Virus record (IMG/VR): IMGVR_UViG_3300042469_000933 | Location: 466 to 64,465 of that record | Length of the DNA stretch: 64,000 nt | Reading direction: 5' to 3' (one strand) | Source: a virus | Lineage: Duplodnaviria; Caudoviricetes | Shown: piece by piece, positions 1-15,031 of the stretch | Layout of the letters: every line of letters begins with the position of its first letter | Position numbering within the stretch: position 1 is the first letter of the stretch | Program-made: the position numbers and the translations under genes | Notes under the pieces: generated by a model | Databases searched by the model: none | What the model saw: only the letters and a program-made list of their open reading frames with translations | What the model was told of the DNA's origin: nothing

Positions 1-2
1 TT

Positions 3-569
3 GCAGCGGGCTCCTTCACCTTGACCAACGCAGAAGGTAAGACCACGGTCTACCACCACCGGCCAGAGAACCCTATGTACGTCATCCGTATCGGGACCAA
101 AGGTCACATGAAGATGTACCGACCGCTGCACACCAGTAAGAAGTTCCGGTTCCTTGGCAACACGGACCGCAACGACATCTACGGGTATGACCGGGTACAT
201 TCGGACAAGCCGCTGCTGATCACAGGCGGACAGAAGGATGCGGAGACCGAGTTTGTGCACCTGGGTGTTCCAGCGATCGCATTCAACTCAGAATCATCGG
301 TACCGGACGAGGATGTCGTGTTCAAGTTGTTCATGCTGGTCAGCCGCCCCATCTTTGTGCTCTACGACAACGACGACGCAGGGCGGGCGTACACCGAACG
401 GGTCTGCAGCAAGTACAACATGCTCACGCCGATTTACCTCAGTCAGTACAGCCAGCAGAAGGATTTCTCTGCTGTTATCGAAAAGCGAGAGTTACACGTG
501 ATTGACCAACTACGCAGTTTCATCAACAAACACACAGAGGCATGTTCGCAAACATTGCACCCTTGCTGA
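3..569 (+). CDS. DNA primase, TOPRIM domain (5' end probably outside the window)
   Basis: The frame is open from the window start. It has TOPRIM-like motifs LLITGGQKD and VLYDNDDAG (DxD) plus a C-terminal KD, resembling phage DnaG-type primases. Confidence 0.75.
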   Translation, partial: AAGSFTLTNAEGKTTVYHHRPENPMYVIRIGTKGHMKMYRPLHTSKKFRFLGNTDRNDIYGYDRVHSDKPLLITGGQKDAETEFVHLGVPAIAFNSESSVPDEDVVFKLFMLVSRPIFVLYDNDDAGRAYTERVCSKYNMLTPIYLSQYSQQKDFSAVIEKRELHVIDQLRSFINKHTEACSQTLHPC

Positions 570-1183
570 AGTCCATCAAGGTCTCAGTAAGCCTGTCGCA
601 GCGCGACAACGGAGAATACGTGGCCATCATCGTGCCACGACCACGGTTCCAGACCGGAAACAAGATCCTGAACAACATGGTGCCCCTCATCCGGGTCTAC
701 AATACCATTGAGGGAATGGAGCTGGCGTTGGCCAGTGAAGAGATCGCCAGCAACATCCGTTCATACCACCACGCCGTGGTGAACGATGAAATGTTTAAGA
801 AGGCTCTGGCCAAGAAAGCTGAGCATGAAGATGACGGAGAAGGCCCTGCAACGGAAAGCAAGGCTGCACCAGCCAAGCGTGTCCCTAAGGCCAAGGCGAA
901 GGAAGAGCCTGCTCCGAAGGCGGAAGAAGCACCCAAGGTGAGCAAGGAAGAGAAGCTCATCATCGTGGGCATGAAGAAGCTGGAAGAGCTGATCAATGCC
1001 GCGGACAAGGAGAAGGCCAAGGCCAAGTTCAAGGAGATCGTCGGGGTGTACAACCTCGCGATCAGCGAAGAGGGCGGTTCGGTGGAGATCACGGAAGAAA
1101 CCCTCACGCAGCTCATGGCCCTGAAGGAAAAGGTAAAGATCATGCCTGAGCAGAAGGCACTGTTCGACATGAACCTGGATTAA
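542..1183 (+). CDS. PRTRC system protein E-like
   Basis: N-terminal MF...VSLS...IIVP...PL domain, a Lys/Ala/Glu/Pro-rich linker and a helical C-terminus. It lies directly upstream of the Ubl gene, as in PRTRC cassettes. Confidence 0.7.
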   Translation: MFANIAPLLKSIKVSVSLSQRDNGEYVAIIVPRPRFQTGNKILNNMVPLIRVYNTIEGMELALASEEIASNIRSYHHAVVNDEMFKKALAKKAEHEDDGEGPATESKAAPAKRVPKAKAKEEPAPKAEEAPKVSKEEKLIIVGMKKLEELINAADKEKAKAKFKEIVGVYNLAISEEGGSVEITEETLTQLMALKEKVKIMPEQKALFDMNLD

Positions 1184-1194
1184 CACGAACAACC

Positions 1195-1407
1195 ATGGCA
1201 GTAGAGATCGAAGCAGCACGACGCAAGTTCAAGCACGGTGACGAACTTCTGGAAGATCCAGGAGCGAACCTCTCACCGGAAGAGGTCATGGAGTTCTTCT
1301 CCGCACAGTACCCGGAGTTGACCAACGCTTCCATCGGTACGCCCGAGGTGGCCGATGATGAGACCGTTGTATATCCGTTCATCACCATCATCGGAAAGAA
1401 GGGATGA
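1195..1407 (+). CDS. PRTRC system protein C, prokaryotic ubiquitin-like protein
   Basis: 70 aa with the family signature R-x-F...L-x-DP...SPEEV..F.S..YPEL.NA and a C-terminal GKKG ending in Gly. Confidence 0.9.
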   Translation: MAVEIEAARRKFKHGDELLEDPGANLSPEEVMEFFSAQYPELTNASIGTPEVADDETVVYPFITIIGKKG

Positions 1408-2552
1408 AACGGGTCTTACGAAGAGCACTGAAAAGGGAAGGGGCGAAAGCCCCTTCTTCTTTTTCACTGACACGTGATTCGTTCTACCGTCAAGAGAATG
1501 CCGTAAAGAGCTGGATGAAAAGCAGTGCACGGCTCCGTGTAGAACCAGCAAGGCAGCGAGAGAACGAGATAGTGGAGCTTCCTAAGGAAGACGTGGAACT
1601 GTTCATGGTCAACAGGGTGATGGTCCCTCACGCGGGAGACATCATGGTGGACTACCTGGAGGAATATGCTGTTGCCTTGGAGCCGTTCTGGCTGTCTGAC
1701 TACATCAATCGCTTCACCGACAGGGATGATATCTCAAACCTGATCTGGACAATGGTCGAGTGCCTTATATCTGACGAGAACGGGGCTCTCCACTTTGACC
1801 AGACTAACGGGCTGTTCATGTTCTCTGCGTCCGTGGGTGAGGAACACCAGCACGGAATAAGGATCAACACGTTCCACAAGACAAGATTCTTTCCGTTGGT
1901 CATGGCCATTTCGCGAGAAGCGATCAGACACGGAGTAATGATCAATTGCTGGAAGGACTATTCTGACATGGCGGAAGACACGCTCAGGATACAGGTAAAT
2001 GAAAGTGAACCGGATGATGAGACATATCTGCGCGCGTCCCTGAAAGAAGACTGGGCTCAAAAGTGGTTCTCAAAGTTCATGCACAAGTGGTTTGACCTGG
2101 AGACAGAAAGCATTGTTTCGTGTGTCAGTAAACTGAGGATACCAACGCAAGTACTTGATCAAGTCAATTCACTTGCTGCCGCATTTGATGAGTATGGCAA
2201 AAAGGCAAAGGGCAACAAGCTCGTAGGAGCATACTGGCTGGACGAGAACTACAATGATGCAAGCCTCCATCCTGTGTATTGGGCCAGGAACAGCAATTAC
2301 CTGATGGACCAAATGGATTCAATGATAGACTCCATTCACAATGAGGGCTACGTCCATGAATACGGGATCACGCTTGGTGTTGAGAATGGCAAGGTCTACA
2401 TAAACGAATCGGAAAGAGACCTGTACATCTCTCGTTACGAACTCAGAAAACAGATCACGGAATGCGTCGAGTCATTAACCCTTCTATTGACACCTGTGCA
2501 GAGATCAAGAAGCAACTTGCCTCCAGTCTCGCCAGAGCAAGAACAGCCCTAG
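1404..2552 (+). CDS. PRTRC-associated protein (protein F position); alternative start at 1515
   Basis: 382-aa ORF with an ATGA overlap to the Ubl gene, located between C and B. The call is positional only. Confidence 0.5.
   Translation: MKRVLRRALKREGAKAPSSFSLTRDSFYRQENAVKSWMKSSARLRVEPARQRENEIVELPKEDVELFMVNRVMVPHAGDIMVDYLEEYAVALEPFWLSDYINRFTDRDDISNLIWTMVECLISDENGALHFDQTNGLFMFSASVGEEHQHGIRINTFHKTRFFPLVMAISREAIRHGVMINCWKDYSDMAEDTLRIQVNESEPDDETYLRASLKEDWAQKWFSKFMHKWFDLETESIVSCVSKLRIPTQVLDQVNSLAAAFDEYGKKAKGNKLVGAYWLDENYNDASLHPVYWARNSNYLMDQMDSMIDSIHNEGYVHEYGITLGVENGKVYINESERDLYISRYELRKQITECVESLTLLLTPVQRSRSNLPPVSPEQEQP
1431..1465 (+). terminator. Intrinsic terminator-like hairpin after the Ubl gene
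   Basis: GAAGGGGC-GAAA-GCCCCTTC perfect 8-bp stem followed by TTCTTTTT and preceded by an A-tract. Confidence 0.65.
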
Positions 2553-3232
2553 TTCTGTTCTCCAGCCTGTCAACGAAATCATGGACAGGACTGGAACTTT
2601 ACGACATAGCCCAAGGAGGGCGCCTTACCAACGGACGGCCCCTGAACGAAGAGCAACTGAAGTCGTTTGTTGAGGCCGCTTCAAAGACGATCAGAAAGAG
2701 GAAGAAGCGATCAGAGCAAACGATCTACGGCATAGTGGACGAGCGCACACTGTACGTGTCGGCAAAGTCACTGATGTTCGTTGTGCCGGCGGGGCAGAAG
2801 ACCGTCTTTGTAGGGGACGAGAAGAACTTCAAATCCATCCCGGTGTTCTTGCCAGCCATGGTGTTCTATTACGGCCTTGATGGAAGCCTAATGGCCTTCT
2901 GGTCCAAGACGGACGAGCGAAGCAAGCTGCTTGCAGAAGAACGAGTGTTGCTGCCAGCGCCAATGCCGAACATTTCAAAGGATGGTGACGTGTGCGTTGG
3001 AACATCCATGAAAAAGAAGCACGGAGCGGACATCCGCGAGTTGCAGAAGTTCGTGACAGACTCCTTCATGGGCTCCGCGTTTAATGAGTGGAGGTCTGAA
3101 GAGATAGCAGGAGCAATGGGCTTTGCTGCCAATACGAAGGCAACCACCGGAGAAGAGTTCTGGAAGTTGGCCAAGAAGGAGAAGTGGAACAAGTCCAAGA
3201 GTTACCGTTGCATTGCAGACATCATCACATGA
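2462..3232 (+). CDS. PRTRC system protein B (prokaryotic E2 family D)
   Basis: LPAMVF and APMPNISKDGDVCVG (putative catalytic Cys) followed by F..SAF. ATGA overlap with ThiF. Confidence 0.85.
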   Translation: MRRVINPSIDTCAEIKKQLASSLARARTALVLFSSLSTKSWTGLELYDIAQGGRLTNGRPLNEEQLKSFVEAASKTIRKRKKRSEQTIYGIVDERTLYVSAKSLMFVVPAGQKTVFVGDEKNFKSIPVFLPAMVFYYGLDGSLMAFWSKTDERSKLLAEERVLLPAPMPNISKDGDVCVGTSMKKKHGADIRELQKFVTDSFMGSAFNEWRSEEIAGAMGFAANTKATTGEEFWKLAKKEKWNKSKSYRCIADIIT

Positions 3233-4005
3233 AAAAGATCCATAAGACAGACCCGATCCTTCTTGGTGGTGCGCTACGGACAAGCATCGTTCTTGTTGGT
3301 TCCGGTGGCACTGGGACGCACATGCTGGAAGGCCTGGCCATGATGCACAAGTCGCTTGTAGACCTTGGCTACAACGGATTGACCGTATCCGTATACGACA
3401 ACGACATTGTGGAAGAGCACAACATCGGAAGGCAGCAGTTCGGATGGGGTGATGTAGGCAGCAACAAGGCGAACAAAGCTGTGATGAGGGTCAACAGGCA
3501 GTACGGACTTGACTGGAGAGCTTCTCCACACAGCTATGAGTTCAACAGCACTTCGTCACACAACGGCAACATTCTGATCACCGCAACAGACAGCGGACGG
3601 TCAAGGAACCTGGCTCAGCGAATGTTCAAGATGTGCATGGGCAGTAACGCGATAGACGACATTACCGAACACCGCGAGCACCACAACCTGATGCGTACGC
3701 TGTACTGGCTTGACCTTGGGAACAATGCCAAAAGCGGACAATTCGTGCTTGGTGCCCATGATTTACCGACCACCGTTGACCTGTTTGGTGAATACGACGA
3801 AACCGACGAAGGCCCATCCTGCTCTGCTGCAGAGAGCCTTCGTCGGCAAGACCTGTTCGTAAACAAGTCACTTGCAACAATGGCCTGTCACCTTCTCTGG
3901 ACCTTGTTCAGAAAAGGATGCATCGACTACCATGGTGGCTTCATGAACCTGGAGACCATGAAGATGCGTCCCATCCTAATCCCTCAACCCAATGGCCCTG
4001 TATAA
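3229..4005 (+). CDS. PRTRC system ThiF-family (E1-like) adenylyltransferase
   Basis: LVGSGGTG nucleotide-binding loop, DNDIVEEHNIGRQ, YWLDLGN and PSCSAAESLRRQDLFVN. The start is placed at ATG 3229, overlapping the upstream TGA. Confidence 0.92.
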   Translation: MKKIHKTDPILLGGALRTSIVLVGSGGTGTHMLEGLAMMHKSLVDLGYNGLTVSVYDNDIVEEHNIGRQQFGWGDVGSNKANKAVMRVNRQYGLDWRASPHSYEFNSTSSHNGNILITATDSGRSRNLAQRMFKMCMGSNAIDDITEHREHHNLMRTLYWLDLGNNAKSGQFVLGAHDLPTTVDLFGEYDETDEGPSCSAAESLRRQDLFVNKSLATMACHLLWTLFRKGCIDYHGGFMNLETMKMRPILIPQPNGPV

Positions 4006-4675
4006 GTTCGTTTGCGAAATGCACAAAGAGCATGGCGCGCTTGGATGGAGACAAAAGTCACAACCAGACTTTGATCCGTTAGGAGGAATGGCCGTTGCTC
4101 ACGACATTCTTGAGCACCTGCCTAATGGGTCTGAAGCCCCACACGATGAGTTCATGGCTTTGGGGGCGGCTGTGCTGATACGAGGCATGCAAGGCTACTT
4201 CATGAACAACACACCAGCGGACAACCTATGTTCTGACTTTCCCGACATCTTCAGCCATATCGTTTACCAGGACATAGGACTGTGTGATGCTCCGGTCACC
4301 AACCGCCTGCAGGACGAATGGGCGGAAACCATGATCAGCGAAACCGTCAACAAAGGCAGGGCCTTGATGATAAGCGAATGGAACATGAGCCCCAAGTTCA
4401 ACAACGAAGAACCGGGAATGTCGATCCATGAACTGGACGTATACCTGCACCATGTCAAGGGATGGATGCGCATTGGGTTCCGCAAAGCGCGTAAACGGTA
4501 CAATGGCCGTGTTCGTGACTTTGAGTTCACTTACCTGTTCAAAGAGATCGAAAAGGAAGCGGACAAGGCCTTGAAGAATGCCGAAGAACAAGATGAGTTG
4601 CACGTGCGACTAGTACGCAATCGCGTTGATGTGAAGCACCTCTCTGCTTACGAACTCTACCCACGAGAAGACTAA
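3992..4675 (+). CDS. hypothetical protein with HDxxEH...DE putative metal-binding motif
   Basis: 227-aa ORF overlapping the ThiF end, containing VAHDILEH and HDEFMALG. Confidence 0.6.
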   Translation: MALYKFVCEMHKEHGALGWRQKSQPDFDPLGGMAVAHDILEHLPNGSEAPHDEFMALGAAVLIRGMQGYFMNNTPADNLCSDFPDIFSHIVYQDIGLCDAPVTNRLQDEWAETMISETVNKGRALMISEWNMSPKFNNEEPGMSIHELDVYLHHVKGWMRIGFRKARKRYNGRVRDFEFTYLFKEIEKEADKALKNAEEQDELHVRLVRNRVDVKHLSAYELYPRED

Positions 4676-4691
4676 CAATACTCCCAACACC

Positions 4692-5039
4692 ATGATCGAC
4701 CAGATTGTAAAGGATGCAAGGTCTTTCCGCCTGAGCGGGAAGAATGCCGATGAGATCAATGTCTACGGCAACCAGGTGGAACTCTCTTTCAGGAACGTGG
4801 GCAAGTGGATCCACGACGAAGAAAGCGGACGTGAGCGAGAGGAAGAGGGTGACCCTGACTGGCGCGAGGATGATGACAACATGATCCTTGCGCCCGGAGA
4901 AATGAAGGCCATCTACACGGACGTGCTGAACTGGAGCAAGAGCAAAACCTGGTTCGACCACGTGACGTTCAGTGTAGAGCCCAGTGAGAAGTGCTGGCTG
5001 GTCATCGCAATACAGCTGGAAGATGCCACGCACCATTGA
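4692..5039 (+). CDS. hypothetical protein
   Basis: 115-aa ORF, caccATG context, phage-like codon use. Confidence 0.6.
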   Translation: MIDQIVKDARSFRLSGKNADEINVYGNQVELSFRNVGKWIHDEESGREREEEGDPDWREDDDNMILAPGEMKAIYTDVLNWSKSKTWFDHVTFSVEPSEKCWLVIAIQLEDATHH

Positions 5040-5688
5040 AACCGTCGTCTACAAGTTCGGCGAACTGAGCGACACAGCGAAAGAGAAAGCCTTGGATGAG
5101 TACCGCTATCGCAATCACTATCCATACGAACAGTGGTATGAACACGTGTGCGAAATGGTAGCCGAAGCTGCTGACATGATTGGCATTGACCTGCGTGGAC
5201 GTAAGCGGAAGTTCATGAACGGCAAGGAGGACAATGAAGGCATCGACATTCTGTTCAGCGGCTTTTCCAGCCAAGGCGACGGAGCTTGCTTTAATGGTTG
5301 GTATTACTACAACAAAGGCGCATTGGCCAAGGTAAAGAAAGAGTTTCCGGAGGATACGGAGCTTCATCGAATTGCCAGTGTGCTGCAGTCGGTACAACGC
5401 AAAGCCTTCTACCAGCTGTATGCAAAGGTGACACCAGGTCCGCTCAGCAATCACTACTCGCACTACAACACACGCACCATTGAGGTGTACGACAAGAAAG
5501 AGCTGGAGTATCCACAGGAAACATGGAACGAGTTCGAGGAAGGCATCGACGAAGCCTTGCGCGACTTCATGAAGTGGATTTATGTACAGCTGGAGAAGGA
5601 GTACGACTGGCTCATGTCCGATGGAGCTGTGCAGGACAGCATTGAAGCCAACGAAACTGAATTCAACGAAGACGGAACACTTGCATAA
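5023..5688 (+). CDS. conserved phage/MGE hypothetical protein
   Basis: MPRTIETVVYKFGELSDTAKEKA...FSGFSSQGDGACF...EFNEDG pattern, recalled from a widespread MGE family. Function unknown. Confidence 0.7.
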   Translation: MPRTIETVVYKFGELSDTAKEKALDEYRYRNHYPYEQWYEHVCEMVAEAADMIGIDLRGRKRKFMNGKEDNEGIDILFSGFSSQGDGACFNGWYYYNKGALAKVKKEFPEDTELHRIASVLQSVQRKAFYQLYAKVTPGPLSNHYSHYNTRTIEVYDKKELEYPQETWNEFEEGIDEALRDFMKWIYVQLEKEYDWLMSDGAVQDSIEANETEFNEDGTLA

Positions 5689-5690
5689 CC

Positions 5691-5954
5691 ATGGAAGACA
5701 CCAGAACAATGAAAGATCTCTGCAAGGAAGTCCTTGCCCTGCAAGACGCGTCCAATTCTCTTGGCGTGGTCAGGAGCATGCGACTTGCCATGAAACGCAT
5801 GATGAGCATGGGCATGGACACCGATGCTATCAACCAGCACCCCGTAACGTGCCTGTACATCGACAAGCTCTGCCATCTTGCACAACTGGCACAGCCCATC
5901 ATGACCGCTTCATACGACAACGTGCATCGTATGGCCAACGCAGAACAGCCATGA
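5691..5954 (+). CDS. hypothetical protein
   Basis: 87-aa ORF, taaccATG, tightly packed with its neighbours. Confidence 0.6.
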   Translation: MEDTRTMKDLCKEVLALQDASNSLGVVRSMRLAMKRMMSMGMDTDAINQHPVTCLYIDKLCHLAQLAQPIMTASYDNVHRMANAEQP

Positions 5955-6042
5955 AAATCGAATACCGCGACAATGGCGAGGCGTAGAGCGCAAGGATTTC
6001 GAGACCAAGACACAGCTCAACAAATTCCTTGCAAACCAATGA
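5951..6042 (+). pseudogene. frameshifted mini-ORF (about 30 aa)
   Basis: ATG 5951 and TGA 6040-6042 both form ATGA overlaps with neighbours. The span is 92 nt, one base short of an intact frame. Confidence 0.35.
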
Positions 6043-6524
6043 TCAAAGCCAAGAACATAGTGACCGGAACCACATTCTACACCTGGTTCGGCAAGATTAC
6101 CAAGCTCAACGGCAAAGGTGATTGGTTGTTCCATGTGTTTGAGCTGGTAAGCCATACCGACACCAGTGGTCCCAGAAAGGAGCTACATGGAACAGTAAAC
6201 TCTTACAAAGAAGCCATGCGCGTCCTTCGCCTGTCCGATCCAGCATGGCCACGAAACCAGCGCGGCAAAGTGACCAGATACGGTTGGGTACTGGCTTCTG
6301 TTCCAAACAGCGTGAACAAGCAACCAACCTGTCCGCGCTGTTTTCACGTAGGAGACGTAGAGCACAAAACGCTGCCTTACGGAGCAGGCACCGGCCCAAT
6401 GGGCAGATATAGGCTTGGCGACAACTACCGACCGGCCGTACGCTGCACTGTATGCGGCCACATGGAAGCTGGCCAAGTGCACATCGTACAGCCCTTCAAC
6501 AACCCACCAAGCTTTGAACTGTGA
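6039..6524 (+). CDS. hypothetical protein with C-terminal zinc ribbon
   Basis: CPRC...CTVC motif pair. Confidence 0.6.
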   Translation: MIKAKNIVTGTTFYTWFGKITKLNGKGDWLFHVFELVSHTDTSGPRKELHGTVNSYKEAMRVLRLSDPAWPRNQRGKVTRYGWVLASVPNSVNKQPTCPRCFHVGDVEHKTLPYGAGTGPMGRYRLGDNYRPAVRCTVCGHMEAGQVHIVQPFNNPPSFEL

Positions 6525-6883
6525 TGACAACCAAAGAACTGCGCAAGCAATACCGCCAGTGGGCGGGTACTGACGTCAGCAAGGATATCTGCGATTACGA
6601 AGGCTACATGCAAGGATGCTGGAAAGGCCGGTGGACACAAGACACTCAGGTACGGCTGTTTGTATCCAAATACCTCAACAGAAAAGATGGGCTCTGCAGT
6701 GTTGCTGCAGAGGGGGAGTATTCTGCAAAGGAGCTTCATGCCTTCTATCTTGAGTTAAAGGACATAAGTGCATTCGAGCGCTTTGCCGGATTCACTGAGA
6801 CACAGCCTGTACCCGACCATGTTCACACAATGCTTCATCTTGCAAGTTCATTGCAACTGTGGAATGGATTTCTCAACCGATAG
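6521..6883 (+). CDS. hypothetical protein
   Basis: 120-aa ORF overlapping the upstream stop. Confidence 0.55.
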   Translation: MMTTKELRKQYRQWAGTDVSKDICDYEGYMQGCWKGRWTQDTQVRLFVSKYLNRKDGLCSVAAEGEYSAKELHAFYLELKDISAFERFAGFTETQPVPDHVHTMLHLASSLQLWNGFLNR

Positions 6884-6885
6884 CC

Positions 6886-7263
6886 ATGGAAAACATCAAA
6901 GAAGGTACGTTGATCCGTGCCACACATCGACCGATTGACTTGATACCAGCATTCCTTCGTGAAGCAAATCGTCGTGGCCTGAACTGGGAAAAGATCATCA
7001 ATGACAGTCATGGCCAATTTGCCTATCACAATGGCATTGGGTCAGCAATAGATCTTGACTTCAATCCCAATCCAGATGCAAACTACTGGGTTCACTCAGA
7101 AGGCATCAATGGATGGACAAGCGAACAAGACGCAGCTCACAACATTGGAGAGCTCATTGACCTTCTGAACGAAGACCTTCCTGAAGGCATGTACTTTGGC
7201 GCTCACCCAGGAGACGGAGCCGACTACGGCTACTGGATGAATCCTGAAGAAGACCTCGACTGA
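6886..7263 (+). CDS. conserved phage hypothetical protein
   Basis: N-terminal GTLIRATHR..DLIPAF and C-terminal YFGAHPGDGADYGYW motif. Confidence 0.65.
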   Translation: MENIKEGTLIRATHRPIDLIPAFLREANRRGLNWEKIINDSHGQFAYHNGIGSAIDLDFNPNPDANYWVHSEGINGWTSEQDAAHNIGELIDLLNEDLPEGMYFGAHPGDGADYGYWMNPEEDLD

Positions 7264-7264
7264 C

Positions 7265-7498
7265 ATGAACAACAAGACCCTGGACATGAACAAGCTCTTC
7301 ACGATTACATGCACAAAGCTGGACTGGAAGCGAAAGTGGTGGCAAGTGTGGAAACCCAAAGTGTACTACACCACGCACTACATGGCTCATGTCAATCGAA
7401 CAGGAGAGGCCTTCAAGTGCCCACCAGAGATACTTCCTGTTCTGCACACACTACTCGAAGCGATTGAAGCCGAAGTGCGGCACGAACTTTCTCATTGA
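7265..7498 (+). CDS. hypothetical protein
   Basis: 77-aa ORF exactly filling the gap between neighbours, with a KWWQVWK motif. Confidence 0.55.
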   Translation: MNNKTLDMNKLFTITCTKLDWKRKWWQVWKPKVYYTTHYMAHVNRTGEAFKCPPEILPVLHTLLEAIEAEVRHELSH

Positions 7499-7499
7499 C

Positions 7500-8225
7500 A
7501 TGGAACTGATCATCAACTTTTCCGGCGGCAAAGACAGCTCCCTTATGCTGGCTCTGCTATGCGAGCAGTATCCGGATGTTCCCAAGCGAGTAGTCATGGC
7601 AGACACTGGCTGGGAGCATCCGGACGCTGTAGAATGGAGCCGTGATATCGTGTCGCTATTCGGACTGGAGCTGGAAGTGGTGCAAGCTGTTCGAGAAAGT
7701 GGCGAGGCCAACAGCTTTTTCAAGATGGTGGAACACCGCGGCATGTTCCCCGGCATGCAGCAGCGCCAATGCACCAGCGACCTAAAGCGCGGACCCATCC
7801 AAAAGATGATACGCAACATCCCATCTACTGAGAAACGCCCAGTGTACATCAACTGCATCGGCTACCGGAGCGAAGAAAGCCGGGACCGCGCCAAGAAGAA
7901 GTGCATCGTGCTGAACAATCTTTTGACCAACAGCAAGCGCATCGTATGGGACTATCACCCCATTCTTGCGTGGAAAAAGGCAGACGTGTTCCGCTACCTC
8001 AAAGAGCGGCTGATACCCGTGCATCCAGTGTACAACCACTTGGGCCGGTTCAGCTGCAGAGTGTGCATCTACATGACTCCGCATGATCTGAACCAAGTCG
8101 CTAAGTTTGACCCTGAGGCAATCAGTATCATTGAGAAAACAGAGAAGGACATCGGCTTCACGATGTTCATGAACGGACCCATAGGAACTCTCATCAACAC
8201 AGACCACAAAAAAACACCATCCTAA
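7500..8225 (+). CDS. phosphoadenosine phosphosulfate reductase family (PP-loop) protein
   Basis: FSGGKDS PP-loop, DTGWEHP, RQCTSDLK, GYRSEES..R, PILAW and RFSCRVC. Confidence 0.88.
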   Translation: MELIINFSGGKDSSLMLALLCEQYPDVPKRVVMADTGWEHPDAVEWSRDIVSLFGLELEVVQAVRESGEANSFFKMVEHRGMFPGMQQRQCTSDLKRGPIQKMIRNIPSTEKRPVYINCIGYRSEESRDRAKKKCIVLNNLLTNSKRIVWDYHPILAWKKADVFRYLKERLIPVHPVYNHLGRFSCRVCIYMTPHDLNQVAKFDPEAISIIEKTEKDIGFTMFMNGPIGTLINTDHKKTPS

Positions 8226-8226
8226 C

Positions 8227-8670
8227 ATGAAACACTTTGCAATAGCAATTGTCATCTTGTTTGCGCAAACAGCAAACGGACAAGTCAAGGAGTTGCTTGA
8301 AAATTATCACGAAGCGACCACCACAGACGCACTGAACGAAGATGCGTTCTTTCTTTCCTCTGGCCACGCTATTAAAATGTTCAAAACAAGCGTTGTCGGA
8401 ACAGCAAACTGCCTTAATAGCTGGTCAACCTTACTGGTCATGCTCAAAAAAGACCACACTTATCTTGAGCGAAGCGTCAGCAAAGTAGTAATGCCAAAAA
8501 ATGCTGCGCCAATGACAGATTATGAAGCAGTCTCTATAATGCTGCGACTAGATCAAGCTTCAATAGAGGTTCAAGACAACTTTGTCTTCTTTGGTGACAC
8601 AATAACACTCTGCTTGTCAATGCAGCAAAAAGGAAGCTCTGTTGCCGTGTTGAGCAAAGAATCATTTTAA
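8227..8670 (+). CDS. secreted/periplasmic hypothetical protein
   Basis: MKHFAIAIVILFAQTANG-Q signal peptide, with Gln at +1 as is typical of Bacteroidota. The DNA is AT-richer than its neighbours. Confidence 0.6.
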   Translation: MKHFAIAIVILFAQTANGQVKELLENYHEATTTDALNEDAFFLSSGHAIKMFKTSVVGTANCLNSWSTLLVMLKKDHTYLERSVSKVVMPKNAAPMTDYEAVSIMLRLDQASIEVQDNFVFFGDTITLCLSMQQKGSSVAVLSKESF

Positions 8671-8672
8671 CC

Positions 8673-9476
8673 ATGAGCAAGCAGCCCATAGTTCTCCGAC
8701 AGTCGCTGATCAAAGCGTTGGATGAAGAAAAGAAACCATGCCATGCCAAGGCGAAAGCCATCTACATCGACGGCATGCCATCACTGCCATCCAAGGCCAT
8801 GCAACGAGGCTTGTTCTTCGAGACCTTGGTGTACGGCATGACCGACCAAGGCGAGGTCGTTGAAATGGACCGGAACGCCAATGGCGCCAAGTCGGAAGCA
8901 CAGCAACGCGTGGAGTACCATGCATACCGGGTCAAGGGACCGCTTCGTCAGGAATTCCAGATGAATTACATCCGGCCGCGCGAGGTGATCGAAGTGCAGC
9001 TGAACAACCCTCGCTACACCTTCAGGGCTTCATTCGACATGGTATCATCCATGCGCATCCAGACCGGTGAGGTGGTGGACGAAGCCATCATCGACTGGAA
9101 GATCACGGAAAGCATCCTGTCCAACTTCGGAGACTTCGCCTGGGGCACTCCGCACACGATGGACCACATCCAAGCGCAAGCGTACAGCTGGGCCTACATC
9201 CAGAAGTACGGCAAGCAGGCTCCGTTCTTCTACTACGTGATGGACCTGAGCCCGCAGAAGCTGTCCAAGTTCGTAGGTGGTTACGTGAGCAAGACGGACA
9301 TGGCCGAGTTCAAGGAACGTCTTCGCCGAACCGTGGCTACGATCGAGCACAACGAAGCCCGGAACGAGTGGGAAATCAACCCCAGTCAGGACAACTGCCG
9401 CGGTTGCCCTCTGAAGTCCACGTGTGAAGGCTACAAGAATGGAGCGGATATTCAGATCATCTTCCACGGCATTTAA
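8673..9476 (+). CDS. Cas4-like / PD-(D/E)XK nuclease with probable Fe-S cluster
   Basis: N-terminal Cys, FD, IIDWK, QAQAY and C-terminal CRGCPLKSTC. Confidence 0.8.
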   Translation: MSKQPIVLRQSLIKALDEEKKPCHAKAKAIYIDGMPSLPSKAMQRGLFFETLVYGMTDQGEVVEMDRNANGAKSEAQQRVEYHAYRVKGPLRQEFQMNYIRPREVIEVQLNNPRYTFRASFDMVSSMRIQTGEVVDEAIIDWKITESILSNFGDFAWGTPHTMDHIQAQAYSWAYIQKYGKQAPFFYYVMDLSPQKLSKFVGGYVSKTDMAEFKERLRRTVATIEHNEARNEWEINPSQDNCRGCPLKSTCEGYKNGADIQIIFHGI

Positions 9477-9479
9477 GCC

Positions 9480-9722
9480 ATGAAGCGTACGCTCATAAGC
9501 AAACACGGAGAGCTCACCGACAACCTGGTGGCCGGTAAGTTGTACATCTGCAGAGTTTCGGGTCGCCCTGTTCTGTATGTGGGGAGTTTCGAGGGTCTTT
9601 CCACAGCAGGACTCGTGTACAACCCGGTCACCGGGACGGTGATCCATGAAGAAGTTCATGATGACCAGTTGATGACGCTGGCGCAAGCTCAAGCCAATGC
9701 CCATGAAAATCCAAAAGGGTAG
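9480..9722 (+). CDS. hypothetical protein
   Basis: 80-aa ORF, aagccATG. Confidence 0.55.
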   Translation: MKRTLISKHGELTDNLVAGKLYICRVSGRPVLYVGSFEGLSTAGLVYNPVTGTVIHEEVHDDQLMTLAQAQANAHENPKG

Positions 9723-9912
9723 CACCGTATGGTTCCATGGCAAGTTCTACGGTCGGCGGTACACTTGCTTGCGCGGAACGGCACTGGAGGAAGGTGAGAC
9801 CGGGGTGGCCCGTTCCATCAAAGTACTGATACCCGGAGCGTTCAAGCCGAACGTGCTTGTGGTGCCCGGGTGCAACATCTACATCGTCAAGGATGTTAAC
9901 TTGCCGGCCTAA
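9703..9912 (+). CDS. hypothetical protein
   Basis: About 69-aa basic ORF filling the gap. Confidence 0.45.
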   Translation: MKIQKGSTVWFHGKFYGRRYTCLRGTALEEGETGVARSIKVLIPGAFKPNVLVVPGCNIYIVKDVNLPA

Positions 9913-9924
9913 ACCCAACAGACC

Positions 9925-10629
9925 ATGGCAAAGAATCGTTCCATAGAGAAACTGGTGATTGTCCCCAATGTGGGCCTCATCATCACCCACTCCGGTGAGC
10001 GCGACAAAGGCGCGAAAGGAGTACGGTCCAAGACCAACGAGACCGTGTACGCAGAACCGTCCGACGAGTTCAAGACCGCCATCAAGCGGCTGACCGAGGG
10101 ACTGATCGGTACCACTGCCCTGTCCGCTTTCGAATCAGCGATGAACAGCGACAAGGTGACCAAGAACTTCGAAGGGAAAGAGTTGAATGCGACCCTGAAG
10201 GCTATCTTCAAGTTCATCGGTAGCAGCGTTTCCATCCGTGGGGCTGTCATCCGTCGCAACGAAGGCACCTTGGTAGGCGTGAAGATTGCTGGCACCTACG
10301 TCAACCCCAAGGGGGAGGCCATGGCCATCAGCTCGCCCATGATCCAACTGGACCAGAACGTCTACGGTTGGGAAGCCAAGCTGATCGAAGCCGTGGAGGC
10401 TGTCGAAGCTGAAGCGCTGAACTTCCTGAACGGAGAGTACCAGAAGATCGAAGTGATCGAGAAGGATCCCAAGGCCAAAAAGGAGGAAGAGCCTGCCGAA
10501 GAGCCCAAAAAAGCCAAGGCAGTTCTCAAGCAAGCGAAGCTGGACCTGGATGACTTGGATGAAGCTCCGGCGCCCAAGAAGAAGACGATCGGCTCCGTGA
10601 TGCGGGCCGTGGCCAAGGAGGCTGCATAG
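9925..10629 (+). CDS. hypothetical protein with Lys/Glu/Ala-rich tail
   Basis: 234 aa with strong codon bias, followed by a terminator. Confidence 0.7.
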   Translation: MAKNRSIEKLVIVPNVGLIITHSGERDKGAKGVRSKTNETVYAEPSDEFKTAIKRLTEGLIGTTALSAFESAMNSDKVTKNFEGKELNATLKAIFKFIGSSVSIRGAVIRRNEGTLVGVKIAGTYVNPKGEAMAISSPMIQLDQNVYGWEAKLIEAVEAVEAEALNFLNGEYQKIEVIEKDPKAKKEEEPAEEPKKAKAVLKQAKLDLDDLDEAPAPKKKTIGSVMRAVAKEAA

Positions 10630-10654
10630 TGGTTTGTGCGGTGTTTGGAGCAAG

Positions 10655-10690
10655 AGAAGGGGTCGCCGCAAGGTGGCCCCTTTTCTGTTT
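10655..10690 (+). terminator. Rho-independent terminator
   Basis: AAGGGGTCGCC-GCAA-GGTGGCCCCTT stem-loop followed by TTTTCTGTTT. Confidence 0.8.
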
Positions 10691-10701
10691 GGGAGAAGCA
10701 T

Positions 10702-10709
10702 TACTTTTG
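10702..10709 (+). promoter_or_regulatory. Bacteroidota sigma -7 element (TAnnTTTG)
   Basis: TACTTTTG 25 nt upstream of ATG 10735. No correctly spaced -33 element was seen. Confidence 0.5.
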
Positions 10710-10734
10710 GAGTCTAACTAACCCCAACAGAATC

Positions 10735-11076
10735 ATGTACCCAGTAATCAGTGACAACCTGAACAACATCCGTTTGACCTTGGATGTCCGCACCGCCGGA
10801 ACCAGCACCAACCCTGAAGGTCTCCCTGCCGAGATCGACGGTGATGTCCAGTACGAGGTACTGGAAGGTGACGTGGAAGTGGTCCCCACCGACGGTACCA
10901 ACGGCAAAGAAGTGCTGCTCGTGAGCAACGCTCCCAACACCGTGAACCGCATTCGTGTGTTCGCCGACAAGCGCTTGGGCGAAGAAACGGTGCTGATCGA
11001 AGATGAGATCGTGTACACCGTGACCGCTGCAGAAGCTGCTGGCTTCGGCTTCAGCGGAGTGGCCGAAACCAAGTAA
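10735..11076 (+). CDS. small acidic beta-rich (Ig-like) protein
   Basis: Alternating Val/Thr-rich beta pattern, 113 aa from ATG 10735. Confidence 0.6.
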   Translation: MYPVISDNLNNIRLTLDVRTAGTSTNPEGLPAEIDGDVQYEVLEGDVEVVPTDGTNGKEVLLVSNAPNTVNRIRVFADKRLGEETVLIEDEIVYTVTAAEAAGFGFSGVAETK

Positions 11077-11079
11077 GCC

Positions 11080-11406
11080 ATGAGGGTTGACGTCTTCTTC
11101 CCTGAGGTGGAGTTCGAGAACGCGCAAGTGTTCCGGCTCCAAGTGAACCGTACGTGCACGGTGAAGATTGTGGACGAAGCACGATCGGTCCGATGGTTTG
11201 CTGACAACGACCAAGTTCTTAGCATCACCACCGCTGAGGACGGCAAGTCCGCCGAGGTGAAGTCCCTTGCACCGGGAAAGTCCGAAATCTGGCTGTTCAC
11301 CAAGGTCGGAGCGAACGATGTCATTGTGACCAAGCTGTTTATTGACGTGTTCGACCGCGAAGCAGCTTCTTTCAAGGTCACGTCACAGACGGAAGTGTCC
11401 AAGTAG
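11080..11406 (+). CDS. small Ig-like (Big_2-like) protein
   Basis: VRWFADNDQVLSI...AEVKSLAPGKSEI resembles bacterial Ig-like group 2 folds. Confidence 0.6.
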   Translation: MRVDVFFPEVEFENAQVFRLQVNRTCTVKIVDEARSVRWFADNDQVLSITTAEDGKSAEVKSLAPGKSEIWLFTKVGANDVIVTKLFIDVFDREAASFKVTSQTEVSK

Positions 11407-11425
11407 ACCACCCAGCGTTCAACTG

Positions 11426-11454
11426 AAAGGGTCACCGTAACTGGTGGCCCTTTT
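11426..11454 (+). terminator. Rho-independent terminator (possibly bidirectional)
   Basis: AAAGGGTCACC-GTAACT-GGTGGCCCTTTT. Confidence 0.75.
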
Positions 11455-11472
11455 ACATTGGTAGTAATGAAA

Positions 11473-11511
11473 GAGGGGCAGCACATCGCGCGCTGCCCCT
11501 CCCCCTTTTTT
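11473..11511. terminator. second hairpin at the convergence of the two transcription blocks
   Basis: GAGGGGCAGC...GCTGCCCCTC perfect 10-bp stem followed by CCC and a T-run. Confidence 0.65.
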
Positions 11512-11521
11512 CAGTGTGCTC

Positions 11522-14500: not shown

Positions 14501-15031
14501 AAGGTCATCAGTATCCACCGCGGCAACGATGTCAGCCGTGATCACCGGATCACAGTTTGGAGAACCGGATGGTGGAGGGTCTCCACAGGGTACCAAATAG
14601 GGCAGGGGAAGGTTCTGGACCACTGTGTCCGCCTGGTAGAACCCGGCCTTGATGAGCAGCGTCCGAATGTCGTACTTGTGCACGGTGGAGAAATACGTGA
14701 CCCAGCAGTTCATCTGGAACAGGCCCCAGTAATGCGCTTGGCCAAGGTCGATACCCGTACGCGCAATGTCCGAGACCCGAAGGTTGAACGCCTGCAACGC
14801 AAGGTCAGCCACCAAGCGCAGGTCTTCAATGAGCCGCAGGCTGTTGTCGCAGGGCGTCGTGAAACCGAAGTATCCGGAGTTGTCGATCGTGTCGAAGGCC
14901 TCACGAATAGCTGGAGCAATTGCTTCGTTCAGGCAGGCCTCCACACAGTCAGGGTACAGCCAGGTGTACGGCGTCTCGCAGCAGGATATCTCCTGCAAGC
15001 GAGGTGTGGCACATTTTAGCAGGTAGCGCAT
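11522..15031 (-). CDS. virion fiber/adhesin-like protein with four internal repeats and a CUB-like domain
   Basis: Four units of D...Y/F-L-I-V-S-D...PP...R-x-V...W-x-G-x-E...Y...CP (partly DUF2793-like), plus the CUB-like segment WLF..PGQTITITF...DIIRIYDG...LYMEVDTDSS. Confidence 0.65.
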   Translation of the reverse strand: MRYLLKCATPRLQEISCCETPYTWLYPDCVEACLNEAIAPAIREAFDTIDNSGYFGFTTPCDNSLRLIEDLRLVADLALQAFNLRVSDIARTGIDLGQAHYWGLFQMNCWVTYFSTVHKYDIRTLLIKAGFYQADTVVQNLPLPYLVPCGDPPPSGSPNCDPVITADIVAAVDTDDLAAIIAGPPLVGDTYLVATDTIGTSFVPGTLIRWNGFFEVVPFNLGDVFRDQGGVLWTMLGLNSPGQLYPPVTMVLNAPNIYALQSTYPQIAWYSGRMVTVRAIVDGLPVIVYNGPENDIGYPVLVNLPADVESVEATYSALGCTWPAPPVQVVPPIGGCGTLVATTNPVLDCSNNSWSIDVNIVSITGFPVGLLVQLINGIEQPGILMTGIDAILVGPYQHGDTVQLTITNLADAECNLFLGSFTTPLVYSATETADRAVDVAFEPSALPGVTYLIVSNLTGAVNGWTGREGQTVTNAVFTTPADGTVLQMDSPSGASGLWQVGGGTAIQAYPPIMLVQTMALGGIWQLISTNPPSTVGRYRTVYVEVQNEDAEWSSLWIGVENDLAIGVDVPWPGFMPYGVRATYFDQCPQAVSTRFEPEDFTVELDCVTNLLLEYQYGNFNQSWLFNTLPGQTITITFISGTIQSSDDIIRIYDGVDNSGILLAVSTVDSLSGLTATTAGTQLYMEVDTDSSDSVMDGTQTEWLFQVGCSQPNTSPSVSVVVTDDCPNDEFSIDVEILFAGDNPSTQVVVRYSVNGGAPTNTVPLNEFDIAVLGPFPLGSIVFIEALHETNPLSNFIAGFFTDNDSCPDPVDPCLPTGGFKLDGVIDLSDLPAYDDPAYSEAVFLIISDNDGLGTFPPFTMVTNYNGGGPVIPWVPFLLPPGTVIQNQLLPEFYVVTSSGSTAVSYYAPASLWIQAGAGVGEYYLRGYQPPPPETFFQDRPVRLQFLVGGVWQTAWTGVESDVVDWVLVTFTNPWTQARWSYNYIACPVHAAAIIYTSEFETNPTCLPPKQYDVRFAIDLAELPYPGSNPPATRYFIVSDTGSVGTLPVGSIVVWSNLLTDYQIAYTPIAPETILVNSTTFWIMQPGPELLFPPIVLTPIAGNTYEAHIPEIQLNNVLTDRPVAIFTGQQYVWTGTEQQLVTPIIVVIPTLLVSFYTVYNFASCPVYIRS

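What the first reader, a model, noticed from the sequence alone, without database searches (positions are those of the whole stretch)
542..4005. Ubiquitin-like conjugation cassette (PRTRC type) in the replication block of a crAss-like phage
Seen: five tightly coupled genes directly after the primase. They encode protein E, a 70-aa Ubl ending in a free Gly (GKKG), a 382-aa unknown, an E2-like protein retaining its Cys (NISKDGDVCVG) and an E1/ThiF with an intact ATP loop and PSC Cys. Established: PRTRC cassettes are known mainly from plasmids and conjugative elements, usually with ParB, and their substrate and function are unresolved. Bacterial Ubl conjugation (Bil, CBASS Cap2) acts in anti-phage defence. 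Inference: this phage carries its own protein-tagging pathway, with no ParB or JAB gene in this window. It could modify host or phage replication proteins or counter defence.
Basis: partly seen in the sequence, partly recalled or inferred. Interest (0 to 1): 0.9.

Follow-up and report, generated by a model that had tools for sequence, protein, structure and literature searches.

The report
Phage ubiquitin-like tagging cassette, protease-less type
A lake-water phage distantly related to crAss phages carries, next to its primase gene, a five-gene kit for attaching a small ubiquitin-like protein to other proteins; the kit belongs to a catalogued but never-tested family that turns out to be common in phages.

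Summary
Window 542-4005 carries five coupled + strand genes. They encode a divergent PRTRC_E-like protein, a 70-aa Prok_Ub/PRTRC_C protein ending in a free Gly, and a 382-aa helical protein of no named family. They also encode a Prok-E2_D/PRTRC_B-like E2 with the invariant Cys, and a PRTRC ThiF-type E1 above NCBIfam's cut-off.

The phage has terminase, portal and capsid genes distantly like those of Crassvirales. I found no JAB, ParB or DnaN in the 64,465-base record, which is 77% complete.

It is not rare. 356 IMG/VR stretches encode relatives of this E1. Of 84 sources examined, 63 carry E, Ubl, E2 and E1, and 59 of these lack the JAB and canonical F genes. Their Ubl ends in Gly in 65 of 66 cases.

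The cassette often follows a phage dnaN gene. A complete crAss-type genome also carries it.

RefSeq already annotates PRTRC in Ralstonia phage Dina. This scan has reported such cassettes before on other DNA.

Verdict: a new, divergent member of a known, untested kind. The target is unknown.

The parts
3..569 (+). 3' part of a primase-like gene (context; it runs off the window start)
   Evidence: PHROG phrog_12622 DNA primase 8e-10 and phrog_239 primase/helicase 2e-7. Pfam Toprim_2 scores 20.9 bits, under the 22.1 cut-off.
542..1183 (+). g1: divergent PRTRC_E-like protein, 213 aa. It has an N-terminal domain, a Lys/Ala/Pro/Glu-rich middle and the tail ...PEQKALFDMNLD
   Evidence: No curated HMM hit. 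hhalign of g1 plus its 3 homologs against the E family of the viral loci gives 93% probability, E 3e-7, over 85 N-terminal columns. The E-family HMM hits its homologs P0123 (6.7e-9) and P0122 (2.2e-7). The nearest ESM Atlas clusters are PF19556 PRTRC_E, score 0.88, which is a lead only. It holds the same first position as E in 76 of 84 sources.
1195..1407 (+). g2: ubiquitin-like modifier, 70 aa, translated in finished form with a free C-terminal Gly (..GKKG*)
   Evidence: TIGR03738 PRTRC_C 57.9 bits (cut-off 45.95). PF14454 Prok_Ub 1.6e-18. 36% identity to Ralstonia phage Dina protein C, which continues 62 aa beyond the matching Gly.
1435..1458 (+). Terminator-like hairpin: 10-bp stem, GAAA loop, then a T-rich tail. 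It lies 28 nt after the Ubl stop, inside the first codons of g3
   Evidence: Pattern scan. RNA fold of 1425-1475: -24 kcal/mol, z -4.82, and 0 of 200 shuffles fold as well. Any attenuator function is inferred.
1404..2552 (+). [quoted passage not shown]
   Evidence: No Pfam, NCBIfam or PHROG hit. 11 representatives in 1.84 billion proteins. AF2 model: pLDDT 67.3, pTM 0.60, helices plus small hairpins. No PDB fold match: best Foldseek E 0.29 and best VIA Z 5.4. Weak collinear profile match to the equivalent gene of the viral loci: 29-40% probability, E 3e-4 to 6e-4. Secondary-structure order matches that family's model.
2462..3232 (+). g4: E2-like carrier protein, 256 aa, catalytic Cys178
   Evidence: PF14460 Prok-E2_D 42.8 bits (cut-off 25). 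TIGR03737 54.1 bits, under the 131.45 cut-off. C178, N170, P167, P131 and G180 are invariant in 79 of 79 relatives. The His found in 74 of 79 is Glu209 here. Motif SAFNEWR is shared with relatives P0135 (95% identity) and P0136 (38% by BLASTP).
3229..4005 (+). g5: ThiF-type E1, 258 aa from ATG 3229 (the frame is open from GTG 3184)
   Evidence: TIGR03736 PRTRC_ThiF 223.7 bits (cut-off 144.75), matching profile positions 1-243 of 245. The Gly loop, D57, R68, Q69, K80, D121 and C198-S199 are invariant in 19 of 19 aligned E1s. 1488 homologs at E <= 0.001.

Best explanation
This is an intact phage-encoded ubiquitin-like conjugation operon. It belongs to the JAB-less, five-gene viral form of the PRTRC / 'type 6d' family.

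Proposed mechanism:
1. The E1 (g5) adenylates the free C-terminal Gly70 of the 70-aa modifier (g2) and takes it as a thioester on Cys198.
2. The modifier passes to Cys178 of the E2 (g4).
3. It ends as an isopeptide on lysines of one or more targets.

The modifier is translated already ending in Gly, so no trimming protease is needed. The phage also brings no enzyme to remove the tag.

The two fast-evolving proteins are g1 (PRTRC_E-like) and g3 (the helical protein). They are most likely the specificity parts: an adaptor, a scaffold or a first substrate.

Gene position suggests that tagging acts early in infection on replication-associated proteins. Here the cassette sits beside the primase gene; in many other viral copies it sits beside dnaN.

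What is shown: gene content, family membership, conserved catalytic residues, and the spread of the same layout. What is inferred: every chemical step and the target. I give about 0.8 that it conjugates a protein tag. I give about 0.3 that the target is at the replisome.
For: - Family hits for the Ubl, E2 and E1, two of them over curated cut-offs.
- Catalytic residues are invariant: E1 Gly loop and C198 in 19 of 19; E2 C178 and N170 in 79 of 79.
- Tight coupling of the five genes.
- The gene order E, Ubl, helical protein, E2, E1 matches the RefSeq-annotated PRTRC of Ralstonia phage Dina, minus protein A.
- Of 84 sources (83 loci plus the window), 63 carry E, Ubl, E2 and E1, and 59 of these lack the JAB (A) and canonical F families.
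- The finished Ubl tracks loss of JAB. It ends in Gly in 65 of 66 sources without A and F, against 2 of 11 with them (Fisher p 3e-9).
- Selection is still acting: g1, g3, g4 and g5 all have homologs at 38-97% identity on other contigs.
- Replication context: primase upstream here. DnaN domains occur in 18 of 30 chosen upstream neighbours. A DnaN-like ORF lies within 1.5 kb upstream of E in 19 of 76 loci. Other upstream neighbours are topoisomerase, DnaB and SNF2 proteins.
- E-family tails resemble clamp-docking peptides in 17 of 76 cases, against 45 of 726 control genes (p 1.7e-5). The regex is loose and the motif consensus is recalled from memory.
Against: - No experiment exists for any PRTRC or 6d cassette in the literature I could search.
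- g4 scores far below NCBIfam's PRTRC_B cut-off. It replaces the His that Iyer et al. 2006 call absolutely conserved with Glu.
- g1 and g3 hit no curated model. The g3 link to the equivalent gene elsewhere is weak: 29-40% probability. The secondary-structure score is 86 against 17 +/- 25 for shuffled element order, and at least one shuffle scored higher.
- The replisome idea is weak for this window. No DnaN was found in this record. dnaN adjacency holds for only 19 of 76 loci. The QKALF of g1 is not kept in its 80% and 62% relatives.
- The record is only 77% complete, so a JAB or ParB could lie in the missing part.
Confidence: 0.7

Rival explanations
1. Counter-defence or host takeover. The same chemistry applies, but the tag goes onto host proteins such as defence or stress proteins to disable or redirect them. 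Alternatively, the cassette interferes with host ubiquitin-like defences of the Bil or CBASS Cap2 type.
For: It is an early-block gene set in a lytic-type phage. The specificity candidates g1 and g3 evolve fast, as expected in an arms race: g1 has only 3 homologs, and g3 has 11 representatives, most at 22-29% identity. In a Phocaeicola prophage a diversity-generating retroelement targets PRTRC protein B (passages of bioRxiv 10.64898/2026.10.01.756045). Bacterial Ubl conjugation does act in phage defence (titles and abstracts listed).
Against: No defence or anti-defence family was identified beside it. The recurrent neighbours in other viral copies are replication genes, not defence genes. Nothing identifies a host target.
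Confidence: 0.2
2. Genome maintenance or partition module, as proposed for plasmid and prophage PRTRC. The cassette would help an episomal or carrier-state phage genome to be kept or segregated.
For: The family is named for its link to ParB. A prophage paper calls it a partitioning cassette (passages of PMC13366799). ParB_N occurs in 15 of 50 viral carrier records. Many carriers are proviruses.
Against: No ParB_N was found in this record. 35 of 50 carrier records show none. No experiment supports a partition role. An E1-E2-Ubl chemistry has no known part in partition.
Confidence: 0.08
3. Sulfur-carrier pathway. The Ubl is thiocarboxylated by the E1, like ThiS, MoaD or TtuB. It would feed sulfur to a PP-loop enzyme for nucleic-acid thiolation, with no protein tagging.
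For: A ThiF-type E1 with a beta-grasp protein ending in Gly is the same first step as in the sulfur carriers (established knowledge, recalled). g5 also gives weak hits to ThiF and MoeB models. A PAPS_reduct (PP-loop) gene lies 3.4 kb downstream at 7389-8225.
Against: An E2-like protein with an invariant Cys is kept in 79 of 79 relatives and is not needed for sulfur transfer. A PAPS-reductase-like ORF lies within about 10 kb in only 4 of the 83 other loci. No rhodanese or cysteine desulfurase was seen.
Confidence: 0.07
4. Artefact or relic: a mis-assembled junction of a mobile-element cassette with phage virion genes, or a decaying, non-functional remnant.
For: G+C is slightly lower in the first 10 kb (0.51-0.53) than in the rest of the window (0.54-0.58). 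The E2 lacks the family His. The record is incomplete.
Against: Contigs of three runs from other studies cover all 30 of 30 bins of window 1-20000 at even depth. One 5,834-base contig bridges 10269-16102. No joints were listed for any run. The only loose ends were in the run that may be the source. All five frames are open and coupled. The His-to-Glu motif is shared with a 38% relative. A complete 80.5-kb genome with crAss-type TerL and capsid carries the same layout.
Confidence: 0.03

Closest known systems
PRTRC (ParB-Related, ThiF-Related Cassette; NCBIfam TIGR03734-03742). It corresponds to operon type 6d of Iyer, Burroughs and Aravind 2006 (PMC1779556, Table 1 row 6d, read as passages). 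An example is Ralstonia phage Dina gp02-gp07.
   Same: The gene order is E, Ubl (C), a middle protein of about 350-380 aa, E2 (B), E1 (ThiF). The E1 and Ubl score over the curated cut-offs. The E2 belongs to Prok-E2_D with the invariant Cys. The middle protein is helical and fast-diverging.
   Different: There is no JAB protein A and no ParB. The Ubl is made finished rather than with a C-terminal extension. The middle protein is unrelated by sequence to canonical F. The E2 has Glu in place of the 'absolutely conserved' His. The E protein is very divergent.
The crAss-type complete genome behind L077 is one example.
   Same: The layout and sizes match: E about 200 aa, Ubl about 70 aa ending in G-x-K-G, a middle protein of 370-400 aa, E2 about 233 aa, E1 about 258 aa. 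JAB is absent. The cassette sits among replication genes. E1 identity is 35-43%.
   Different: g1 and g3 are not found by jackhmmer from or to these loci. dnaN is not next to it here. The E2 His is replaced. The window's clade has only a handful of members in the databases searched.
Bil (BilABCD) and CBASS Cap2/Cap3 bacterial ubiquitin-like conjugation systems (titles and abstracts listed; details recalled)
   Same: E1 and E2 chemistry that attaches a beta-grasp or cyclase C-terminus to target lysines. Both act in the phage-host conflict.
   Different: Those systems are host-encoded defences with a deubiquitinase, and Cap2 has E1 and E2 fused. Here the genes are phage-encoded and separate, and there is no peptidase. 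The only hit to a cap2-type model is 18.5 bits against a cut-off of 320.
ThiS/ThiF, MoaD/MoeB and TtuB/TtuC sulfur-carrier pairs (recalled)
   Same: A ThiF-fold adenylating E1 acts on a small beta-grasp protein with a C-terminal Gly. g5 gives weak hits to these models.
   Different: Those pairs have no E2. Here the E2 Cys is invariant and no sulfur-donor enzyme is adjacent.

Membership tests
PRTRC (NCBIfam TIGR03734-03742) | ThiF-family E1 matching TIGR03736 over its cut-off | tested here: met
   223.7 bits against a cut-off of 144.75, covering profile positions 1-243 of 245.
PRTRC (NCBIfam TIGR03734-03742) | Protein C (Prok_Ub) matching TIGR03738 over its cut-off | tested here: met
   57.9 bits against 45.95. 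PF14454 1.6e-18.
PRTRC (NCBIfam TIGR03734-03742) | Protein B matching TIGR03737 over its cut-off | tested here: not met
   54.1 bits against 131.45. The broader Pfam Prok-E2_D is met: 42.8 bits against 25.
PRTRC (NCBIfam TIGR03734-03742) | Protein E at the head of the cassette | tested here: inconclusive
   No curated HMM hit, even at E <= 10. Remote support comes from hhalign at 93% probability, the E-family HMM on homologs, and an ESM Atlas lead of 0.88.
PRTRC (NCBIfam TIGR03734-03742) | Protein F | tested here: not met
   No NCBIfam hit for g3. BLASTP against Dina F finds nothing. hhalign against the F family gives 0.2% probability.
PRTRC (NCBIfam TIGR03734-03742) | Protein A (JAB peptidase) | tested here: not met
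   TIGR03735 and PF14464 give no match in the 64,465-base record. There is no room between g4 and g5. The record is 77% complete.
PRTRC (NCBIfam TIGR03734-03742) | Associated ParB homolog | tested here: not met
   PF02195 ParB_N gives no match in the record. TIGR03734 itself was not searched. The record is 77% complete.
Operon type 6d (Iyer et al. 2006) | E2-like protein with an absolutely conserved His C-terminal to the catalytic Cys | tested here: not met
   The Cys is present. The His column (74 of 79 relatives) holds Glu209 here. The motif SAFNEWR is shared with P0135 and P0136.
Operon type 6d (Iyer et al. 2006) | Rapidly diverging alpha-helical protein between the Ubl and the E2 | tested here: met
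   g3 lies in that position. The AF2 model is mostly helical. Relatives are at 18-22% identity beyond the closest two.
JAB-less five-gene viral form (defined here) | Order E, Ubl, middle protein, E2, E1, with the Ubl ending in Gly and no JAB | tested here: met
   See the layout tables. The window's Ubl ends GKKG.
JAB-less five-gene viral form (defined here) | Middle protein homologous to the 370-400-aa family of the viral loci | tested here: inconclusive
   hhalign gives 29-40% probability, E 3e-4 to 6e-4, collinear over about 140 C-terminal columns. The secondary-structure order is alike: score 86 against 17 +/- 25 for shuffles, with a maximum of 110.
Crassvirales (crAss-like phages) | Terminase, portal and major capsid protein of the crAss type | tested here: met
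   TerL matches 151 phage records, mostly crAss-like, at 27-30% identity. The capsid protein matches 32 records: 28 'uncultured', 2 'Bacteriophage sp.', 1 Bohxovirus and 1 crAssphage by name, with the 12 listed at 20-22% identity. PHROG portal and terminase families match. Formal taxonomic placement was not tested.
CBASS Cap2 / 6A-MBL type E1-E2 fusions | E1 and E2 fused in one protein, with a partner cyclase or MBL gene | tested here: not met
   E1 and E2 are separate genes. NF058523 scores 18.5 bits against a cut-off of 320.

The most novel reading that the evidence does not exclude
The cassette is a viral counterpart of PCNA ubiquitination. The PRTRC_E-like protein would dock on the sliding clamp, or another replisome hub, through its C-terminal peptide. 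It would bring the E2~Ubl there, so that the phage irreversibly tags the host or phage replisome to take it over. The missing peptidase and the altered E2 active-site neighbourhood (His to Glu) would mark a lytic-phage specialisation of this machine.
Probability: 0.15. Interest if true: 0.85.

Novelty: new member of a known kind. Interest (0 to 1): 0.4.

Why it matters
Ubiquitin-like conjugation in bacteria has so far been shown for host defence systems (Bil, CBASS Cap2). The PRTRC / 6d family was predicted in 2006, and I found no test of it in the papers I could search.

This window adds a compact lytic-phage version with only five genes. Its tag needs no processing, which makes it a convenient set for reconstitution.

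The survey made here has three practical results:
- The protease-less form is the common viral one.
- It sits in replication modules, often right after a phage dnaN gene. That gives a concrete first place to look for targets.
- Because the tag ends ...K-K-G, trypsin should leave a single Gly (+57 Da) on modified lysines. This is inferred from the sequence and matters when designing the proteomics.

As a discovery it is incremental. The scan already holds many such cassettes, including in crAss-like phages.

Tried and rejected
Reaching the closest relatives:
- The contigs of 82,952 and 96,183 bases hold homologs of g1 and g5. I could not fetch them.
- Scans of viral contigs with g5 and with the capsid protein, and of metagenome contigs with P0002, found only distant or no relatives.
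- So I could not check the missing 23% of the genome for JAB, ParB, DnaN or a polymerase.

Direct sequence comparisons:
- BLASTP of g1, g3 and the downstream ORF against Dina E, F and gp01 found nothing.
- NCBIfam at E <= 10 gave only noise for g1, g3 and ORF 3992-4675.
- The middle-gene family of the viral loci matched PRTRC_F in 0 of 33 members; its only NCBIfam hit was one chance-level match to another family.

Fold searches:
- For the g3 model, best Foldseek E was 0.29 and best VIA-align Z was 5.4 (rmsd 4.3, 96 aligned), on generic helical bundles.
- For the better model of the viral middle protein (pLDDT 83.9), best Foldseek E was 0.17 and best Z 4.7.
- BFVD gave only one uncharacterised phage protein of the same family.
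- This shows no known fold was found. It does not show the fold is new.
- ESM Atlas gave no usable hit for g3.

Other attempts:
- Complex prediction of the E2 with g3 residues 76-382 gave no verdict (score 0.00, controls not run). It is not evidence either way.
- The ThiF gene of the TAG-recoded crAss-like record behind L003 has neighbours unrelated to this cassette's profiles. It is not a copy of this system.
- No RNA holder was listed for the stretch, so nothing can be said on expression.
- Megablast of window 1-12000 against the phage collection found no match.

Literature:
- 'PRTRC' gave 45 papers, 25 of them listed, none functional by title or abstract.
- 'crAss-like' with 'ThiF' gave 0 papers.
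- 'Prok-E2' with 'phage' and 'ubiquitin-like' gave 0 papers.
- The Pfam names gave nothing relevant.
They might hold gene lists that mention such cassettes.

Checks not completed:
- Only the first 50 of the 79 carrier loci were searched for Prok-JAB and ParB_N.
- The TIGR03735 search covered L003-L052.

Full report
WHAT IS THERE

Window 542-4005 holds five + strand ORFs:
- g1, 542-1183, 213 aa.
- g2, 1195-1407, 70 aa.
- g3, 1404-2552, 382 aa.
- g4, 2462-3232, 256 aa.
- g5, 3184-4005, 273 aa from GTG, or 258 aa from ATG 3229.

The genes are tightly coupled. g1 overlaps the upstream primase-like ORF by 28 nt. g2 and g3 share ATGA. g3 and g4 overlap by 91 nt. g4 and g5 share ATGA if ATG 3229 is used. 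g5 overlaps the next ORF by 14 nt.

The long start of g4 is supported because its first 35 residues align with a conserved N-terminal strand of the family. The window has Phe33 where 77 of 79 relatives have Tyr. The ATG 1404 start of g3 is supported because distant homologs share its basic N-terminal peptide.

FAMILY ASSIGNMENTS

- g2 matches PRTRC_C (57.9 bits, cut-off 45.95) and Prok_Ub (1.6e-18).
- g5 matches PRTRC_ThiF (223.7 bits, cut-off 144.75).
- g4 matches Prok-E2_D (42.8 bits, cut-off 25) but reaches only 54.1 bits on PRTRC_B, whose cut-off is 131.45.
- In an alignment of 19 E1s, the Gly-rich ATP loop, D57, R68, Q69, K80, D121 and C198-S199 are invariant.
- In 79 distinct E2 relatives, C178, N170, P167, P131 and G180 are invariant.

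One departure stands out. Iyer et al. 2006 describe a His after the Cys as absolutely conserved in this E2 family (PMC1779556, Table 1 row 6d, passages). It is present in 74 of 79 relatives. Here it is Glu209, in a motif (SAFNEWR) shared with a 95% relative and a 38% relative. That pattern points to a clade-specific variant rather than decay.

g1 hits no curated model and has only three homologs in 5.8 billion clusters. Remote evidence still links it to PRTRC_E:
- Its small family aligns to the E family of the viral loci at 93% probability (E 3e-7, N-terminal 85 columns).
- The E-family HMM hits two of its homologs at 6.7e-9 and 2.2e-7.
- The nearest ESM Atlas clusters are PRTRC_E (score 0.88, a lead only).

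g3 hits nothing curated. It has 11 representatives in 1.84 billion proteins.

THE PHAGE

The window is bases 466-64465 of a 64,465-base IMG/VR record, linear and 77% complete by CheckV. The minus strand carries the virion genes:
- A terminase with 151 matching phage records, mostly crAss-like, at 27-30% identity.
- A portal (PHROG match).
- A capsid protein with 32 matching records, named mostly 'uncultured' (the 12 listed include cr-numbered phages, a Bohxovirus and a 'Bacteriophage sp.'), at 20-22% identity.
- A 6102-aa ORF.

So it is a distant crAss-like phage.

Its DNA is held by 20 listed runs of 20 coded studies; 18 are labelled lake water or freshwater metagenome and 2 plain 'metagenome'. 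Contigs from three runs of other studies cover all 30 of 30 bins of window 1-20000 at even depth. One contig bridges 10269-16102. No joints were listed. The chimera objection therefore fails.

No PRTRC_A, Prok-JAB, ParB_N or DnaN domain was found in the record. The missing 23% remains a caveat.

HOW COMMON IS IT

- In the GenBank phage collection, 7 records match the E1. RefSeq annotates Ralstonia phage Dina with E, C, F, B, A and ThiF in that order.
- Two papers mention PRTRC in prophages. One calls it a partitioning cassette. The other reports a retroelement diversifying protein B (passages).
- In IMG/VR, 356 stretches encode relatives of the E1, and I kept 79 loci.
- I ran jackhmmer from the Dina proteins over the ORFs of 83 loci plus the window. 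It found E in 76, C in 77, B in 81 and ThiF in all 84. It found A and canonical F only in the same 11.
- 63 of 84 sources have E, C, B and ThiF in the layout window, and 59 of these lack A and F.
- The dominant layout is E (about 200 aa), Ubl (about 70), an unnamed protein (370-400), E2 (about 233) and E1 (about 258). That is the window's own layout.
- Whole-record searches agree. Prok-JAB is in 1 of 50 carrier records and ParB_N in 15 of 50.
- Three of 80 carrier records have a terminase like the window's. One is a complete 80.5-kb genome with terminal repeats. It also matches the capsid protein and has the five-gene layout.
- This scan has reported such cassettes many times on other DNA, including in crAss-like phages and next to sliding clamps.

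FINISHED TAG, NO PROTEASE

In sources without A and F, the Ubl ORF ends in Gly in 65 of 66 cases, usually ...G-T-K-G. In the 11 sources with A and F it does so in 2 of 11, and otherwise runs on for tens of residues (Fisher p 3e-9). The window's ...GKKG fits the first group. Dina's protein C aligns to it at 36% identity and continues 62 aa past the matching Gly. The simplest reading is that the JAB protein trims the precursor in the canonical form and became dispensable once the gene ended at the Gly. It also means the phage brings no de-conjugating enzyme.

THE MIDDLE PROTEIN

- The g3 AF2 model (12-row alignment, pLDDT 67.3, pTM 0.60) is mostly helical with two small hairpins.
- The equivalent protein of the viral loci models well (33 rows, pLDDT 83.9, pTM 0.77).
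- The order of secondary-structure elements from residue 77 onward is nearly the same in the two. The alignment score is 86 against 17 +/- 25 for shuffled element order, though the best shuffle reached 110.
- Profile-profile comparison gives a collinear C-terminal match at 29-40% probability.
- I take g3 as a probable very divergent member of that family. This fits Iyer's 'rapidly diverging alpha-helical protein'.
- Neither model matches a solved fold.

CONTEXT AND LIKELY SITE OF ACTION

Here the cassette follows a primase-like gene. Downstream are several unknown ORFs, then a PAPS_reduct gene and a PD-(D/E)XK nuclease gene.

I chose 30 upstream neighbours of at least 250 aa in the viral loci. 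Of these, 18 carry DNA polymerase III beta (DnaN) domains. The others include topoisomerase, DnaB and SNF2 proteins. By jackhmmer, a DnaN-like ORF lies within 1.5 kb upstream of E in 19 of 76 loci.

Earlier notes of this scan suggested a clamp-docking peptide, so I looked at E-family tails. By a loose pattern, 17 of 76 end in an L-F type peptide, several as Q-x-x-L-F at the very end. Only 45 of 726 other genes do so (p 1.7e-5). Another 37 end in acidic runs. The window's g1 ends ...PEQKALFDMNLD, but its 80% and 62% relatives have Q-V-K-M-N-L-D and Q-A-K-M-S-L-D instead. The motif is therefore only suggestive here. The clamp-motif consensus is recalled, not taken from a call.

MECHANISM

Shown: the parts, their conserved catalytic residues, their coupling, and their recurrence.

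Inferred:
- The E1 adenylates Gly70 and forms a thioester at Cys198.
- The tag transfers to E2 Cys178.
- An isopeptide forms on target lysines.
- g1 and g3 give specificity or serve as first substrates.
- A stable hairpin with a T-rich tail lies 28 nt after the Ubl stop (-24 kcal/mol, z -4.82). It could lower read-through into g3-g5 and so give more tag than enzymes.

Rivals: counter-defence tagging of host proteins, a maintenance or partition role, a sulfur-carrier role, and artefact. They are weighed in their own sections. A PAPS-reductase-like ORF lies near the cassette in only 4 of the 83 other loci, which weakens the sulfur idea.

VERDICT

The cassette is a new, divergent member of a known but untested kind, and its phage-borne, protease-less form is common. 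Its value is as a compact candidate for the first biochemical test of this family, and as one more pointer towards the replication machinery. It is not a first sighting.

Noticed in passing
window 17877-36185 (-): A single 6102-aa ORF lies in the virion block, far longer than its neighbours.
   Followed up: no
window 1435-1458 (+): A strong terminator-like hairpin with a GAAA loop and a T-rich tail lies just after the Ubl gene, inside the first codons of g3 (-24 kcal/mol, z -4.82). It may set the ratio of tag to enzymes. I could not check its conservation because no DNA of the relatives was reachable.
   Followed up: partly
L003 5808-10669 (IMG/VR record of 92,118 bases, 100% complete): Another phage with a crAss-type terminase match that contains 5 in-frame TAG codons. 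It has a different arrangement beside its primase-like gene: a 433-aa protein with a weak Prok-JAB hit (18.6 bits), followed by a ThiF-family gene. Its neighbours do not match this cassette's profiles.
   Followed up: partly
loci L004-L082, upstream of the E gene: A phage-encoded DNA polymerase III beta (sliding clamp) gene sits directly before the cassette. It is seen in 18 of 30 chosen upstream neighbours and in 19 of 76 loci by jackhmmer.
   Followed up: partly
E-family proteins of L001-L082, last 10-25 residues: The tails fall into two main kinds. One is a short L-F or Q-x-x-L-F peptide at the very end (17 of 76). The other is a long acidic run (37 of 76), some ending in an aromatic residue, as single-strand-binding protein tails do (the SSB comparison is recalled).
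   Followed up: partly
window 7389-8225 and 8673-9476 (+): A PAPS_reduct (PP-loop) gene (72.3 bits) and a PD-(D/E)XK nuclease gene (36.2 bits) lie in the same early block.
   Followed up: partly
window 2462-2552: g3 and the E2 gene overlap by 91 nt in different frames. Both reading frames appear conserved at the protein level in relatives.
   Followed up: partly
window 1-10000: This stretch is held by 20 listed runs of 20 coded studies, 11 of them with half or more of its sampled words; 18 are labelled lake water or freshwater metagenome. The phage therefore seems widespread in freshwater.
   Followed up: partly
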